From positions 64,001-76,239 of the IMG/VR virus record IMGVR_UViG_2974544868_000001: a stretch of 12,239 bases of DNA; one strand, written 5' to 3'. Positions 8,103 through 12,239 of this stretch are shown here, piece by piece (the stretch's first letter is position 1; the number at the start of each line of letters is the position of its first letter). The notes beneath the pieces are model-generated. The model had not been told where the DNA came from. It searched no databases and saw nothing but the letters and a program-made list of their open reading frames with translations. Made by a program: the position numbers and the translations under genes. This stretch comes from a virus (Duplodnaviria > Heunggongvirae > Uroviricota > Caudoviricetes > Schitoviridae).

Positions 8103-9698
8103 TCACACGACGTAGGAGTTGATAGGAAGCTCCTGTTCCGGAGCCTGTTCTAGTTCCCACCGATCCACTTCATCAGGGGTTGCCGGTGCCGATGCGGAAG
8201 GGAGCCATGGCTTGAAGTAGCCGAGCATGGAGATGGTGTCGATGCAATCGTCCTTTCCCTTGATGCCGGACTGGGTGACCAAACGGATCTGCCCCATGAA
8301 CAAGCCCATGATAACACTCTGCTTCAGTTCTTCAGGGAAGTACATCTTGCCAGCCTTGAACCAAGGCACGACCAGATTGAAGCGGGTCAGCTTGTCGGTG
8401 CTCGGACGGATACCCGGATCACCAGACTTGGAGTTGCTGGCGAAGTTGAACCAGATCTTCCGGTTCATCATCTCAGACTGGAGCCAGGTGATGAAGGCCG
8501 TCTGCTGGCCGCTGACCTCGATACCCACCTGCTGGGGTTCGTACATGGAGACGAACTTGAACAGCTGGTTGATGGACTCATCCATCGTGGTTCGCTTGGC
8601 AAAGCCATCCACCCAGAACCAGTCACCATTGTGGTTGACCGCCCAGACCGAGATCACGCTGTAGTCAGCCGTGGTCTTCTTGCTGGTGGCGAAGTCAGTG
8701 GTGATATAGAAGTTGAAGCTGCTCTTGTTCTCCAACAACTTAGCACGCGAGTACCACCGGATCTCGGCATCCTGCACAAGCCGTTCTTCTTCGGAGGTAA
8801 CACGGAGCATCAGCTCCTGCATGAAGCCTGCGACCTTGCCTGTACCCACTGCCAGCTTGTACTGGCTTTCGATGAAGTCGTAAGTGAATCGATCTTCCCA
8901 TGCACCACGGAACTCGGAACGCTCACAGGGGAATCGTTCGCAGACCGGATACACATTGACGTGCCACTCACCCGACTCGACCGCTTCTACGATCACGTCT
9001 TCCTTGTTGAATGGCGTACCGTTGAAGACGATCTTGCGGCGGGTAGGATCAAGCGCATGGTTCACACCGTTGTAGACCGTGTTCTTGATCGCATCCATGG
9101 CTGCCTTGGAGTTGGCATCGCCATCACCAATCAAGTCATCGAGCACACAGAACGTTGGACGCTTACCGAAGATCTTGGAACCACGGATACCAGTCTGTGC
9201 ACCAAACATCTTGACGCCCAGCTTGTGACCATCGACAGACTCAAACTCCAGATACGGATCAGTGAAGGTTGCCTTCTTGATCCAGCGCTGGAGGAATGGA
9301 CTGTTGTTGTAACGGAACTCGATGTTCTTGCGTGCATTCTTGACGCCGTTCTCCATCGAATCCGACACATAGATCATCGCTTCCACCTTTCCATGTCCGG
9401 GCAGATACCCGAACACTGCGAGGTAGAGCGTCATGTATTCCATGAACAACGTGGTCTTTGCAGCACCACGGAACAGCAGATTCACTAGGTAGTCGTGCGT
9501 GGACTGAGCCAGCTTGTCCAGCATCGCCAAGTGAACTGGGGGAGTCTTGTTTGACTCCCCCTGCTCTCCGTTCACCAGCTTGATGAACGTCATGAACTCC
9601 AGTGCAAATGTGGTCGGCACGTAGTCATTGCTGTTGAGGAAGCCGTAGTCGGCTTCATCCAACCAGTCTTCCAGTGACTTCTTACTGTTGGTCGTCAT
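8103..9698 (-). CDS. terL: Terminase large subunit (N4 gp68-like), about 531 aa
   Basis: Walker A-like FRGAAKTT, Walker B FCVLDDL, coupling motif FNGTPF, nuclease acidic residues YITTDFA and KDDCIDTISM. ATG at 9698 is preferred over the TTG at 9704. No intein or intron is evident. Confidence 0.95.
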   Translation of the reverse strand: MTTNSKKSLEDWLDEADYGFLNSNDYVPTTFALEFMTFIKLVNGEQGESNKTPPVHLAMLDKLAQSTHDYLVNLLFRGAAKTTLFMEYMTLYLAVFGYLPGHGKVEAMIYVSDSMENGVKNARKNIEFRYNNSPFLQRWIKKATFTDPYLEFESVDGHKLGVKMFGAQTGIRGSKIFGKRPTFCVLDDLIGDGDANSKAAMDAIKNTVYNGVNHALDPTRRKIVFNGTPFNKEDVIVEAVESGEWHVNVYPVCERFPCERSEFRGAWEDRFTYDFIESQYKLAVGTGKVAGFMQELMLRVTSEEERLVQDAEIRWYSRAKLLENKSSFNFYITTDFATSKKTTADYSVISVWAVNHNGDWFWVDGFAKRTTMDESINQLFKFVSMYEPQQVGIEVSGQQTAFITWLQSEMMNRKIWFNFASNSKSGDPGIRPSTDKLTRFNLVVPWFKAGKMYFPEELKQSVIMGLFMGQIRLVTQSGIKGKDDCIDTISMLGYFKPWLPSASAPATPDEVDRWELEQAPEQELPINSYVV

Positions 9699-10374
9699 GT
9701 TCAATCACTCGTGCCATGGACATCTCTGCAATCTTCTTGACTGGCATGCCCTCTGCAACCTGCTTCAGCTGAGCGTCTGCGAGGTCACGCATACCCTGAC
9801 GCAGTGCATCCAGACCCGTGTCAGTCACAGTGATGTTGACCAACGGAGCAACGTCCTTCGGCTTGTCAGTGTGAGCCAGTACGGAATTGGCAGCAGTCGT
9901 CTGCACCATCTCACTGGCCGAGTTCTCCATCAACCACAGCTGGCGATTCAATGCCTTCTGTCGTGCTTCCTGATTGATGAGCCAGAAAGGAATGAGTGAC
10001 TGCTCAAGGATGGCTTGAACCAGCTTGCCTTTGTGGTACATGGCCACGTAGGCAGAGATGGTTCGTGCATCCAGACCACGTGCAACCTGATCTGCATGAC
10101 GGGCAGGGAACGTCTTGGCGTAGGACTCGCCATTGCTGTAACCCATCATCTTGTAGGTGCAGTAGGTCACTGCATTGAGGTAGTCCTCTGTCTTGAACTT
10201 CCCTTCCTGTAGCACCTTGGTGTAGCTGATGAAGTTGTCCCGGACCACTTCTGCGATCTCAGGGTCAGCCACGATGTTGTTGATCTTGTCGGCGAACTCT
10301 TGGGTTGCCATCGAACGCAGGCTACGAGGCAATGCCTGCGCCAGCTGTTCCTGAGTCAAAAGTTCATTGCTCAT
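9682..10374 (-). CDS. N4 gp69-like protein, putative terminase small subunit, 230 aa
   Basis: Lies immediately upstream of and overlaps terL. HTH-like region (YLNAVTYCTYKMMGYSNGESYAKTFP); size and position match N4 gp69. The small-terminase function is inferred. Confidence 0.75.
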   Translation of the reverse strand: MSNELLTQEQLAQALPRSLRSMATQEFADKINNIVADPEIAEVVRDNFISYTKVLQEGKFKTEDYLNAVTYCTYKMMGYSNGESYAKTFPARHADQVARGLDARTISAYVAMYHKGKLVQAILEQSLIPFWLINQEARQKALNRQLWLMENSASEMVQTTAANSVLAHTDKPKDVAPLVNITVTDTGLDALRQGMRDLADAQLKQVAEGMPVKKIAEMSMARVIEHDDQQ

Positions 10375-10850
10375 TACTGTGCCTGCTGGCTCTTACGCTT
10401 ACCGTCTTCGTAAGCGATACGGGTGGTCAGGGCATTGAAGTAGGACTGCATAGCAGTGGCCTGCTGTTGCAGCAGCTGGAATTGGATGTCGTCCAGCTGG
10501 GTTGCCCCAGTCTGAAGGAAGCGCAGCAGACTGTTCAGACGGGCATTCAACTCATCGGCCTCATCCTTCATCCGGCCAAGGAAGTCCCTGTTCTCCGAGG
10601 CCAGACGATCAGCCAGCCGGAAGCCGAGGTAGGCCCAGACCTTCTTGACAGCTTCCTCTCGGGCGTACTTGTTGCCGATCTCAGCATTGAAGTTCTCCTT
10701 GCTGACACAGGCCGAGTGGCCATCGACAGTGAAGCCATTGTCCAGCGTCAGCTGGCAGATGGTGGTCCGCCCATCCGGCAGGACGGTGTAGGTCTCTTCA
10801 CGGATCGCAGCTTCGACCTGTTCGATGGTGACGCGGGGAGCACTGCTCAT
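10374..10850 (-). CDS. N4 Gp49/Sf6 Gp66-family domain fused to a C-terminal helical hairpin (crAss001_48-like), 158 aa
   Basis: Start at 10850 follows the AGGAAG SD; the ORF-track start at 11018 overlaps another gene. The N-domain VTIEQVEAAI...TTICQLTLDNGFTVDGHSACVSKENFNAEIG..YAREEAVKKVWAYLGFRL is the Gp49/66 signature. The C-domain is RMKDEADELNARLNSLLRFL...LLQQQATAMQSYFNALTTRI. Confidence 0.85.
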   Translation of the reverse strand: MSSAPRVTIEQVEAAIREETYTVLPDGRTTICQLTLDNGFTVDGHSACVSKENFNAEIGNKYAREEAVKKVWAYLGFRLADRLASENRDFLGRMKDEADELNARLNSLLRFLQTGATQLDDIQFQLLQQQATAMQSYFNALTTRIAYEDGKRKSQQAQ

Positions 10851-10864
10851 GATCTTCTTCCTAT

Positions 10865-11092
10865 TTAGATTTGACGAGCGGAGATGTGAAGCTGGTGGTC
10901 CAGCTCGTTCAGCTTCTTCTGAAGGGCAGCCTTCACCTCTTGGTTCCCGAGGTGCTGCTGATGCTGGATGTAGAAGTCCAGCTTGTGGTCGGCGATCACC
11001 TTCAGATGATCGACCCACTCCTGCTTGGCCTCTATATAAGGAATGGGCTTGATGTGGTCGTAGTCGCCTAACGGGTCTTCACGGGATGGCAT
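10865..11092 (-). CDS. Hypothetical protein, 75 aa, His-rich and predicted helical
   Basis: Fills the gap exactly between two copies of the junction motif; its own TAA is part of the next motif and it has an AGGAAG SD. Confidence 0.8.
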   Translation of the reverse strand: MPSREDPLGDYDHIKPIPYIEAKQEWVDHLKVIADHKLDFYIQHQQHLGNQEVKAALQKKLNELDHQLHISARQI

Positions 11093-11105
11093 GTCTTCTT
11101 CCTAT

Positions 11106-11429
11106 TTACAGTGAGGCAACGGTCTGCTTCTGGAAGTAGGCAGCGAGGTCGAACTCAAACCAGTCGTCCGCCAACAGATCGCCCGTGCTCGGCACCCAGA
11201 CACTGACCTTGCCCTGTGCATTCTTCAGGGCGAAGTAGCCCTCATAGGGAACCAAGTTCGAGGGGAACGCCAGCTTGGCTGCACCCGTCTGGGCCGGGTA
11301 CTCATTGGCCGGGACGTAATAGACGAACTGGTTCTCCCCGTTCCAACCCCGGCGACTCATCGCCAGATTCGCCTTGAGCTTGATCAGGGCGTATTCGAAC
11401 TGACCCTCAGATGCCATCTCAATGTTCAT
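11106..11429 (-). CDS. tad2: DUF2829-family protein (Thoeris anti-defence 2, Tad2-like), 107 aa
   Basis: FEYALIKLKANLAMSRRGWNGENQFVYYVPA...YFALKNAQGKVSVWVPSTGDLLADDW matches the DUF2829 pattern (F..AL..LK.G..V.R.GWNG.....W.PS..D.LA.DW). Start at 11429 follows the SD motif. Confidence 0.88.
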   Translation of the reverse strand: MNIEMASEGQFEYALIKLKANLAMSRRGWNGENQFVYYVPANEYPAQTGAAKLAFPSNLVPYEGYFALKNAQGKVSVWVPSTGDLLADDWFEFDLAAYFQKQTVASL

Positions 11430-11446
11430 GTTCTTCTTCTTCCTAT

Positions 11447-11614
11447 TTAGATCGCATAAGCGAAGGCTGCCACCAGAGCGGCAATGGCGATGGATACCCA
11501 CACGAAGGCTTGGGCATTCAAGACACGGACACGTGCCTCACTCTCGGCAAGACTCGCCTCATGGACTTCCTGCTCCATGCGGTTCGCCTCGTTGTACTCT
11601 TGATGGGTGAACAT
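11447..11614 (-). CDS. Small membrane protein, 55 aa (below the ORF-track cutoff)
   Basis: Manual translation: MFTHQEYNEANRMEQEVHEASLAESEARVRVLNAQAFVWVSIAIAALVAAFAYAI*. Acidic helical N-terminus and C-terminal TM helix. The stop TAA is part of the third junction motif, and the ATG is about 25 nt downstream of the predicted transcription start. Confidence 0.75.
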   Translation of the reverse strand: MFTHQEYNEANRMEQEVHEASLAESEARVRVLNAQAFVWVSIAIAALVAAFAYAI

Positions 11615-11645
11615 TGCTTCCGGCCTTGTGTTGGTTGGAGGCTAG

Positions 11646-11674
11646 ACTTTAGACTCCCCATAGGTAGATGACAA
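11646..11674 (-). promoter_or_regulatory. Sigma70-like promoter driving the accessory cassette and late operon
   Basis: Minus strand TTGTCA (11674-11669), 17-nt spacer, TAAAGT (11651-11646), positioned about 30 nt upstream of the first ATG (11614). Confidence 0.65.
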
Positions 11675-12038
11675 GACTACCCCCAATACCGAGAAGGATG
11701 GGGGTACGGGCAACCTATGCTGGTTCCCAAGGGGGGAACCAAGGAAGGGGGGAATCAGGCTCACAAACCTCTTCCAATTTGTCCTCACCTGTTCTACTCT
11801 TTCCCTGCACGCTGCGCTGCCCGTCACACTCGCTACGTGCTTGCTCCTAGTACCACCATGCGGAACCTTCTTCTTGGTTTCCAGTCAACCCTACCGGGCG
11901 TGGGGACAATAACCACCGGAGCTGGAGCTTCTGGCGTACCTCCTTCCAACAGAACAGCGTTGGTGCAACACAGACGGGATTCTGGTCCCGGCGAGTCAGA
12001 AGTGATCCAGTGGCAGAGCACACTGCCAGACCAAACAG

Positions 12039-12063
12039 ACCCCCGTCTTTACGGGGGTTTTTT
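12039..12063 (+). terminator. Rho-independent terminator on the plus strand
   Basis: ACCCCCGT-CTTT-ACGGGGGT followed by TTTTT; a perfect 8-bp stem plus U-tract. Confidence 0.85.
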
Positions 12064-12239
12064 ATATCCACCCTATCAACTTATGCTGGTAGAGCCTTAT
12101 CCAATTTACCCTCGCTAATTTTTTGGACATCGGGATTGAGATCACTCTCCCACCAAAGGTTATGTTGGTAGGAGAAGACATGAGGATGAGTTGGGGGAGG
12201 CATATGGAAGGTAGCTCAGCTATGTCTGAGTGAGGGTTT

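What the first reader, a model, noticed from the sequence alone, without database searches (positions are those of the whole stretch)
10374..10850. Two-domain fusion: Gp49/66 domain plus helical hairpin, possibly a dual-specificity signal sponge
Residues ~1-85 are a complete Gp49/66 domain. Residues ~90-150 form a separate helical hairpin (R.K.E..EL..RL..L..FL ... LL..Q..AM..Y...L..RI) matching the crAss001_48-like small phage family. From recall, unverified, that family includes a T4 protein and may correspond to the TIR-signal sponge Sequestin. If both assignments hold, one polypeptide could sequester CBASS and Thoeris signals together. If the second assignment is wrong, the fusion still points to the hairpin as a new anti-defence domain.
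Basis: partly seen in the sequence, partly recalled or inferred. Interest (0 to 1): 0.78.

Follow-up and report, generated by a model that had tools for sequence, protein, structure and literature searches.

The report
Known Acb4–Sequestin dual sponge fusion
This phage gene encodes one small protein joining two known "sponge" domains (Acb4 and Sequestin) that soak up bacterial alarm molecules; the same fusion has already been published and tested in a related phage, so this is a new member of a known kind.

Summary
Window 10374-10850 on the minus strand encodes a 158-aa protein. Residues 7-82 match Pfam PF13876 (Gp49/66, E 8.5e-26) and residues 89-146 match PF21825 (crAss001_48, E 2.3e-15).

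Both functional guesses also hold. PF13876 is the Acb4 family of cyclic-dinucleotide sponges. PF21825 is the Sequestin family of 3'cADPR sponges, and its T4 member is Y16O.

The idea is not new. Tal et al. 2025 discovered Sequestin through its fusions to Acb4 (91 instances in Pfam). Fedorova et al. 2026 showed that the Acb4-Sequestin fusion of Pseudomonas phage Ab09 (gp59) is a tetramer that binds gcADPR tightly and 3'3'-cGAMP weakly. It inhibited type I Thoeris strongly and type II-A CBASS partially. The window's protein is colinear with gp59 (40% identity, E 4e-33) and keeps all four Sequestin pocket residues (R93, E97, Q130, R144).

Points not found in the papers read:
- The gene sits at the head of the terminase operon of an N4-like Stenotrophomonas phage, next to a Tad2 homologue.
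- Its Sequestin half has been exchanged as a cassette relative to sister phage Paxi.
- Relatives carry an uncharacterised 75-aa "domain X" at the same joint.

The scan's other notes on this same window had already flagged the surrounding gene array.

The parts
10374..10850 (-). Acb4-Sequestin fusion gene, 158 aa (P0003); the stop TAA occupies 10376-10374
   Evidence: ORF and translation; two Pfam domains; 40% identity and colinear with the experimentally tested Ab09 gp59
10605..10832 (-). [quoted passage not shown]
   Evidence: Pfam E 8.5e-26; whole-genome hit at G000 74605-74832; PDB 9E4W by sequence E 7e-5 and by Foldseek E 7.8e-6
10413..10586 (-). Sequestin (PF21825) domain, residues 89-146, a helical hairpin with pocket residues R93, E97, Q130 and R144
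   Evidence: Pfam E 2.3e-15; whole-genome hit at G000 74413-74586; these four columns are invariant with T4 Y16O, Paxi and Ab09; AF2 hairpin
10594..10623 (-). Recombination joint at the domain boundary, just after the conserved LGFRLAD motif (residues 75-81)
   Evidence: Nucleotide identity to phage Paxi falls from 0.87-1.00 to 0.32-0.60 here and recovers in the terminase gene. The N-terminal halves are 95% identical, while BLASTP finds no alignment between the C-terminal halves
10853..10867 (-). 15-nt stop-plus-RBS module TAAATAGGAAGAAGA preceding the gene (one of three exact copies)
   Evidence: Three exact copies at 10853, 11094 and 11435 on the minus strand; none in 200 shuffles
9682..10374 (-). 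Small terminase subunit gene; its ATG overlaps the fusion gene's TAA by one base (TAATG)
   Evidence: Sequence; phrog_2109 E 5.4e-86; annotated as terminase small subunit in Paxi and Piffle
10865..11092 (-). 75-aa ORF of unknown family lying between the two sponge genes
   Evidence: No Pfam or PHROG hit; conserved in Paxi; no usable Atlas hit
11106..11429 (-). Tad2 homologue (PF11195), 107 aa
   Evidence: Pfam E 1.2e-18; PDB ModTad2 9EIB E 4.2e-17, Tad2 8V3E E 4.4e-17 and SPO1 gp34.65 E 4e-9

Best explanation
The gene encodes a two-domain nucleotide-signal sponge of the published Acb4-Sequestin type, carried by an N4-like (Schitoviridae, Pokkenvirus-like) Stenotrophomonas phage.

Shown here:
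- Both domains are present and intact.
- The N-terminal half has the Acb4 fold.
- The C-terminal half keeps the four residues that line the 3'cADPR pocket of Sequestin.

Inferred from the tested homologue Ab09 gp59 and from SPO1 Acb4 and SequestinA/B:
- Four Acb4 domains form a pinwheel tetramer whose inter-subunit pockets bind CBASS-type cyclic dinucleotides.
- The Sequestin hairpins pair as antiparallel dimers whose two interface pockets bind the type I Thoeris signal 3'cADPR.
- One polypeptide therefore removes both signals before they reach their effectors.

The gene is the last of a three-gene array (Tad2 homologue, 75-aa unknown ORF, Acb4-Sequestin). Its stop codon overlaps the small-terminase start. 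I infer that it is made together with the late packaging and structural proteins.
For: Pfam domains lie well above the curated cut-offs. PDB 9E4W Acb4 matches by sequence (E 7e-5) and by fold (E 7.8e-6, rmsd 1.5-3.4 A over 68-74 columns). The AF2 model has pLDDT 88.8 and the expected topology. The protein is 40% identical to Ab09 gp59 over 141 colinear residues (E 4e-33). The literature reports that gp59 binds 1'',3'-gcADPR tightly, binds 3'3'-cGAMP weakly, binds 2'3'-cAA, is a tetramer, and has a Sequestin domain that crystallised as an antiparallel dimer. The Sequestin pocket residues defined by mutagenesis are E12/Q47/R61 plus R8 in SequestinA and R7/E11/Q45/R59 in SequestinB. They correspond to R93/E97/Q130/R144 here. 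These are invariant with T4 Y16O, Paxi and Ab09. E97, Q130 and R144 are invariant and R93 is at least 90% conserved across 41 fused homologues. The Acb4 ENFNxEIG loop (residues 52-59) is identical to that of SPO1, and the contact residues F40, F54, N55 and I58 are identical, with K36 replaced by R28. A bona fide Tad2 homologue lies two genes upstream. The fusion architecture is common: 57 of the best 120 homologue clusters carry both Pfam domains.
Against: No binding or phenotype data exist for this protein, and I could not model the oligomeric state. Five of the ten SPO1 Acb4 ligand contacts differ: E49 to T41, V56 to C48, Y57 to V49, T70 to Y62 and K81 to A73. The nucleobase specificity of the Acb4 half is therefore uncertain, and in Ab09 that half bound cGAMP only weakly. 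Identity to the tested homologue is only 40%. A late-operon position is unusual for an anti-defence gene, and expression timing was not measured.
Confidence: 0.85

Rival explanations
1. Effectively a single-specificity protein. The Sequestin half sequesters 3'cADPR, while the Acb4 half mainly supplies tetramerisation and avidity and binds CBASS signals too weakly to matter in vivo.
For: [quoted passage not shown] Five of ten SPO1 Acb4 contact residues are changed here, including the guanine-reading E49 and the phosphate contacts Y57, T70 and K81.
Against: All eight Acb4 homologues tested by Chang et al. bound 3'3'-cGAMP, and those from Gram-negative hosts also bound 3'3'-cAA. The ENFNxEIG loop and F40 are conserved here, and N55 and R28 are closer to SPO1 than the Ab09 equivalents are. 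The Acb4 half is 95% conserved between sister phages.
Confidence: 0.2
2. The architecture is the same but the ligand spectrum has shifted. This Sequestin allele and/or this Acb4 pocket would target other signals than those of the characterised members, for example other ADPR-derived TIR products, 2'3'-cAA or trinucleotides. The cassette exchange between sister phages would then reflect a switch in specificity.
For: The Sequestin halves of this phage and of Paxi are unalignable by BLASTP, although the flanks are about 90-97% identical at nucleotide level. Acb4 contact residues differ from SPO1. Sponge families are known to vary in ligand range (abstract of 10.1101/2025.08.24.671296).
Against: Both alleles keep the same four pocket residues. 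In Tal et al., the 13 PF21825 members tested inhibited only type I Thoeris among five systems.
Confidence: 0.15
3. The C-terminal hairpin is only a coiled-coil or oligomerisation tail with no ligand pocket.
For: It is a simple two-helix hairpin. Foldseek found no solved structure for it.
Against: It matches PF21825 above the cut-off on its own. Standalone homologues of 64-99 aa exist, including T4 Y16O, which is a verified anti-Thoeris sponge. The polar pocket residues R, E, Q and R are invariant, which a mere coiled coil would not require.
Confidence: 0.04
4. Not an anti-defence protein at all, but an accessory factor of DNA packaging co-translated with the terminase.
For: Its stop codon overlaps the small-terminase start. 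The same position upstream of the terminase genes is seen in Achromobacter phage Axy11 and Erwinia phage Gutmeister.
Against: Both domains belong to experimentally verified sponge families. In Ab09 the homologous gene lies far from the terminase and is dispensable for growth without immunity. Piffle has an extra gene between the fusion and the terminase.
Confidence: 0.02

Closest known systems
Pseudomonas phage Ab09 gp59, Acb4-Sequestin fusion (Fedorova et al. 2026, 10.64898/2026.06.04.730250)
   Same: Same domain order and about the same size (147 vs 158 aa). The two are colinear at 40% identity (E 4e-33). The R, E, Q and R pocket residues are conserved. Both are from N4-like phages.
   Different: Ab09 gp59 lies in the hotspot between the primase-polymerase and the virion RNA polymerase, next to Bes1 and Bes2. 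Here the gene heads the terminase operon at the right genome end, next to Tad2. Some Acb4 contact positions differ (N55 vs D, R28 vs L, F40 vs W). The window's protein has not been tested.
Pseudomonas phage YH6 PF21825-Acb4 fusion and the 91 Pfam Acb4/PF21825 fusions (Tal et al. 2025, 10.1101/2025.07.12.664507)
   Same: Same two-domain architecture. This architecture was the clue that led to the discovery of Sequestin. The YH6 fusion was modelled as a homotetramer (ipTM 0.74).
   Different: Different host genus. The sequence relationship to YH6 itself was not measured here.
Bacillus phage SPO1 Acb4 (PDB 9E4W)
   Same: The N-terminal half shares the fold (TM by target 0.66-0.76, 32-34% identity), the ENFNxEIG loop, and contacts F48, F62, N63 and I66.
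   Different: SPO1 Acb4 is a single-domain protein of 96 aa. Five of its ten ligand contacts are substituted in the window's protein, and its C-terminal helix region is here followed by a Sequestin domain.
Standalone Sequestins: phage T4 Y16O (64 aa), SequestinA and SequestinB
   Same: The C-terminal half matches the same Pfam model. It aligns with Y16O at 32% identity, with the R7/E11/Q45/R59 equivalents invariant.
   Different: Those proteins are free-standing dimers. Here the domain is tethered to a tetramerising Acb4 domain.
Pasteurella phage Pm86 Acb4-Tad2 fusion (Tal et al. 2025)
   Same: The same principle: one polypeptide with an anti-CBASS and an anti-Thoeris sponge domain, shown to cancel both systems.
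   Different: The partner domain there is Tad2, not Sequestin. In this phage Tad2 is a separate gene two ORFs upstream.

Membership tests
Acb4 (PF13876) sponge family | Match to the PF13876 profile above the gathering score | tested here: met
   90.7 bits against a cut-off of 27, residues 7-82 covering profile positions 1-81 of 82; confirmed in the whole-genome search
Acb4 (PF13876) sponge family | dsRBD-like alpha-beta-beta-beta-alpha protomer fold as in 9E4W | tested here: met
   AF2 secondary structure H9-15, E16-23, E29-36, E41-47, H56-86; Foldseek top 13 hits are all 9E4W chains, E 7.8e-6 to 6.7e-5
Acb4 (PF13876) sponge family | Conservation of the ligand-contact residues of SPO1 Acb4 (K36, F48, E49, V56, Y57, F62, N63, I66, T70, K81) | tested here: inconclusive
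   Four are identical (F40, F54, N55, I58), one is conservative (R28) and five are changed (T41, C48, V49, Y62, A73), by the HMMER alignment read. The tested homologues are also divergent and all bound cGAMP
Acb4 (PF13876) sponge family | Homotetrameric pinwheel with four inter-subunit pockets | not testable with these tools
Tetramers were reported for SPO1 Acb4 and for Ab09 gp59
Acb4 (PF13876) sponge family | Binds CBASS cyclic dinucleotides without degrading them | not testable with these tools
   Requires EMSA, SPR or HPLC on purified protein
Sequestin (PF21825) sponge family | Match to the PF21825 profile above the gathering score | tested here: met
   56.7 bits for the whole protein and 58.9 bits for the C-terminal half alone, against a cut-off of 24.8; residues 89-146 cover profile positions 2-60 of 61; whole-genome search E 5.7e-17
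Sequestin (PF21825) sponge family | Short two-helix hairpin protomer | tested here: met
   AF2 helices 90-114 and 121-157, with per-10-residue pLDDT blocks of 84-97 over residues 91-150
Sequestin (PF21825) sponge family | Conserved pocket residues R, E, Q, R (SequestinA R8/E12/Q47/R61; SequestinB R7/E11/Q45/R59) | tested here: met
   R93, E97, Q130 and R144 are invariant in the alignment with T4 Y16O, Paxi and Ab09. They are invariant or at least 90% conserved in 41 fused homologues.
Sequestin (PF21825) sponge family | Antiparallel homodimer with two symmetrical interface pockets that bind 3'cADPR | not testable with these tools
   No complex prediction is available and no solved Sequestin was found in the PDB copy. 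Reported for the Ab09 domain crystal
Acb2 (T4 Vs.4) sponge family, considered as an alternative identity for the hairpin | Sequence or fold match to Acb2 | tested here: inconclusive
   No Acb2 chain appeared in the PDB sequence search at E up to 10 or among the listed Foldseek rows. The T4 protein matched by PF21825 is Y16O, not Vs.4

The most novel reading that the evidence does not exclude
The head of the terminase operon may be a second, undescribed anti-signalling hotspot of N4-like phages, in which sponge modules are shuffled at a fixed joint after the Acb4 'LGFRLAD' helix. On this reading, the Sequestin cassette exchange between sister phages reflects selection for a different signal range, or for escape from host systems that sense sponges. 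The ~75-aa SH3/Tudor-like 'domain X' found at the same joint in relatives would be a further, unnamed family of immune-signal binders. Domain X occurs alone and also fused to Acb4, Sequestin or Tad2.
Probability: 0.25. Interest if true: 0.6.

Novelty: new member of a known kind. Interest (0 to 1): 0.27.

Why it matters
The finding as stated is a correct re-derivation from raw sequence of something published in 2025-2026: phages fuse sponge domains to block CBASS and Thoeris with one protein.

Its practical value is annotation. The orthologues in Stenotrophomonas phages Piffle and Paxi are still labelled 'hypothetical protein', and these phages are candidates for use against S. maltophilia. Knowing that they carry Tad2 plus Acb4-Sequestin helps predict which host defences they can overcome.

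The observations beyond the published work are modest but testable:
- The array is terminase-linked and probably late-expressed.
- Only the Sequestin half has been swapped between phages that are otherwise about 90% identical.
- An uncharacterised domain repeatedly fused to three known sponge families can be approached with the same fusion-based reasoning that uncovered Sequestin.

Tried and rejected
- **Homo-oligomer modelling.** Oligomeric state therefore rests on the literature only.
- **Solved structures for the hairpin.** Foldseek against the PDB found nothing for the Sequestin half, and phmmer against PDB sequences found only Acb4. I found no Sequestin structure in the PDB copy searched.
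- **Exhaustive search with the hairpin alone.** Single-sequence phmmer of the 73-aa C-terminal half against 1.84 billion representatives gave only 15 hits, all weaker than 1e-10. That is enough to show standalone relatives exist, but too insensitive for a census.
- **Hairpin as Acb2.** I first suspected from memory that the hairpin family containing a T4 protein might be Acb2 (Vs.4). I rejected this because PF21825 is Sequestin and its T4 member is Y16O.
- **Comparing the two Sequestin alleles.** BLASTP between the window's allele and Paxi's gave no alignment. Their relationship is visible only through the Pfam profile and MAFFT.
- **Promoter scan.** One sigma-70-like site was found in 9500-12239, against 0.9 expected by chance. 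This is no evidence about transcription.
- **Domain X identity.** It has no Pfam hit at E up to 10, no PDB sequence hit and no significant Foldseek PDB hit; SPO1 Tad2 rows appeared only at E 1.6-4 and TM about 0.35. The best VIA-align Z was 5.4, to a DUF1653 protein among generic SH3/Tudor-like barrels. AFDB clusters returned only unnamed proteins. The idea that domain X is a divergent Tad2 is therefore unsupported. PDB 6E3C, mentioned in Hadary et al., is the phage L decoration protein and is unrelated.
- **The 75-aa neighbouring ORF.** No Pfam, PHROG or Atlas lead was found.

Full report
**1. What is there**

The stretch 10374-10850 is coding on the minus strand. The ATG is at 10850, an AGGAAG ribosome-binding site lies 8 nt upstream, and the TAA stop is at 10376-10374, giving a 158-aa protein, P0003. 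The plus-strand reading of the same coordinates has no stop codon but matches no annotated gene in the relatives.

Pfam places PF13876 (Phage_gp49_66) on residues 7-82 (E 8.5e-26) and PF21825 (crAss001_48) on residues 89-146 (E 2.3e-15). Both are far above their curated cut-offs, and both are recovered when each half is searched alone. PHROGs has a family that spans both halves (phrog_3934, E 1.5e-55), as well as families for each half.

An AlphaFold2 model built on 41 fused homologues has mean pLDDT 88.8. It shows a short helix, three strands and a long helix (residues 9-86), followed by a helical hairpin (90-114 and 121-157).

**2. Where it sits**

The window is the last 12.2 kb (64001-76239) of a 76,239-bp virus record rated 100% complete. 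The nearest isolates are the N4-like Stenotrophomonas phages Paxi and Piffle (Schitoviridae, Pokkenvirus), at about 90% nucleotide identity.

Downstream on the same strand lie the small terminase (9682-10374), the large terminase, a virion protein and tail-fibre genes. The small-terminase ATG overlaps the fusion gene's TAA by one base (TAATG).

Upstream on the same strand lie a 75-aa ORF with no family (10865-11092) and a Tad2 homologue (11106-11429). The Tad2 homologue scores PF11195 E 1.2e-18 and ModTad2 9EIB E 4.2e-17. An identical 15-nt stop-plus-RBS module, TAAATAGGAAGAAGA, precedes each of these three genes; it did not occur in any of 200 shuffles.

PF13876, PF21825 and PF11195 each occur exactly once in the whole genome, all in this array.

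**3. What the two domains are**

PF13876 is the Acb4 family. SPO1 Acb4 is a tetrameric sponge that sequesters 3'3'-cGAMP and related CBASS dinucleotides, and all eight homologues tested bound cGAMP (10.1101/2024.12.30.630793). The window's N-terminal half hits PDB 9E4W by sequence (E 7e-5) and by fold (Foldseek E 7.8e-6, TM by target 0.66-0.76).

I read the HMMER alignment against the contact list:
- Identical: F40, F54, N55, I58.
- Conservative: R28 replaces K36.
- Changed: T41, C48, V49, Y62, A73.
- The ENFNxEIG loop is identical to SPO1.

PF21825 is Sequestin. Tal et al. queried Pfam for unknown families fused to Tad2 or Acb4. PF21825 was the commonest partner of both (60 and 91 instances). 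Ten of 13 members tested inhibited type I Thoeris by sequestering 3'cADPR. T4 Y16O is a member. Pseudomonas phage YH6 is their example of the Acb4 fusion (10.1101/2025.07.12.664507).

I recovered Y16O in the T4 genome with the Pfam model (E 1.8e-19; 64 aa) and aligned it with the hairpins of this phage, Paxi and Ab09. The mutagenesis-defined pocket residues (R7/E11/Q45/R59 in SequestinB numbering, which is also Y16O's) are invariant and correspond to R93, E97, Q130 and R144 here. Across 41 fused homologues, E97, Q130 and R144 are invariant and R93 is at least 90% conserved.

**4. The fusion itself is already characterised**

Fedorova et al. studied Pseudomonas phage Ab09 gp59, an Acb4-Sequestin fusion (10.64898/2026.06.04.730250). 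They report the following:
- It binds 1'',3'-gcADPR very tightly and 3'3'-cGAMP more weakly.
- It binds 2'3'-cAA and triggers Panoptes.
- It strongly inhibits type I Thoeris and partially inhibits type II-A CBASS.
- The full-length protein is a tetramer.
- The isolated Sequestin domain crystallises as an antiparallel dimer.

I fetched Ab09 ORF59. It is colinear with P0003 over both domains, at 40% identity (E 4e-33).

For this protein it remains an inference from homology. I put it at 0.85. The main uncertainty is how effective and how specific the Acb4 half is.

**5. Fused versus free**

- Among the best 120 homologue clusters of the full protein, 57 carry both Pfam domains and 63 carry PF13876 only.
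- In the INPHARED phage collection, 656 records match the protein, but only 26 have a place covering at least 80% of it.
- Free Sequestin-like proteins of 64-99 aa exist.

The fusion is thus a recurrent minority form of two families that mostly occur free, as Tal et al. state.

**6. What I did not find in the papers**

(a) Location. In Ab09 the gene lies in the hotspot between the primase-polymerase and the virion RNA polymerase. Here it heads the terminase operon at the right genome end. The same position is seen in Achromobacter phage Axy11 (a fused form) and Erwinia phage Gutmeister. The Fedorova text does not mention terminase or these hosts. Figures could not be read.

(b) Cassette exchange. 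Nucleotide identity to Paxi is 0.87-1.00 through the Acb4 half (10624-10863). It falls to 0.32-0.60 across 10374-10593 and recovers to 0.93-1.00 from about 10310 within the terminase gene. At protein level the N-terminal halves are 95% identical. BLASTP cannot align the C-terminal halves, although both match PF21825. Piffle carries the window's allele (92% identity) but has an extra 81-aa gene before the terminase and a divergent centre in the 75-aa ORF.

(c) Other modules at the same joint. Relatives whose Acb4 half is about 75-86% identical diverge just after the LGFRLAD motif into other modules. One is a ~75-aa 'domain X', placed either instead of Sequestin or between Acb4 and Sequestin, as in phage Philippe.
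- Domain X also occurs alone (73-96 aa) and fused to PF21825 or PF11195.
- It folds confidently (pLDDT 93.4) as a small beta-rich domain.
- It has no Pfam, PDB or named AFDB relative.

By the reasoning that uncovered Sequestin, domain X is a candidate signal-binding module. This is a lead only, and domain X is not in the window.

**7. Verdict**

The kind of system is already known and tested, so the window adds a new, unannotated member. Interest is low to moderate and rests on the side observations in section 6, not on the fusion itself.

Noticed in passing
window 11106-11429 (-): A bona fide Tad2 homologue lies two genes upstream of the fusion (PF11195 E 1.2e-18; ModTad2 9EIB E 4.2e-17). The phage therefore carries three known sponge domains in about 1.1 kb.
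   Followed up: partly
window 10865-11092 (-): A 75-aa ORF lies between the Tad2 and Acb4-Sequestin genes. It has no Pfam, PHROG or Atlas relative. It is conserved in Paxi, but its centre (about 10894-11013) is only 33-50% identical at nucleotide level to Piffle.
   Followed up: partly
window 10853-10867, 11094-11108, 11435-11449 (-): An exact 15-nt module, TAAATAGGAAGAAGA (stop codon plus RBS), precedes each of the three array genes. It occurred in none of 200 shuffles.
   Followed up: yes
window 10374-10623 (-) compared with L005 (Paxi) and L010 (Piffle): Only the Sequestin half of the gene has been exchanged relative to sister phage Paxi. The breakpoint lies at the domain boundary after LGFRLAD. 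Piffle keeps the window's allele but has an extra 81-aa gene inserted before the small terminase.
   Followed up: yes
relatives P0022, P0023, P0024, P0035 (phage Philippe), P0054, P0020, P0021; standalone P0151 (Erwinia phage phiEaP8): An uncharacterised ~75-aa 'domain X' (conserved GYLVEYLDGGKPNHP...YISWSPK) occurs alone and fused to Acb4, Sequestin or Tad2. Its AF2 model has pLDDT 93.4 and an SH3/Tudor-like fold. It has no Pfam, PDB or named AFDB match, and is a candidate further anti-signalling module.
   Followed up: partly
relatives P0080 (residues 85-214) and P0020/P0021 (residues 1-100): Other unannotated extensions are fused to near-identical Acb4 domains: a C-terminal domain matching phrog_19300 and an N-terminal ~100-aa region with no PHROG hit.
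   Followed up: no
L011 (Achromobacter phage Axy11), L012 (Erwinia phage Gutmeister): In other Schitoviridae lineages the Acb4 or Acb4-Sequestin gene also sits directly upstream of the N4 gp69-like small terminase at the right genome end. This suggests a second accessory-gene hotspot besides the primase/vRNAP one.
   Followed up: partly
I did not study it further.
   Followed up: no
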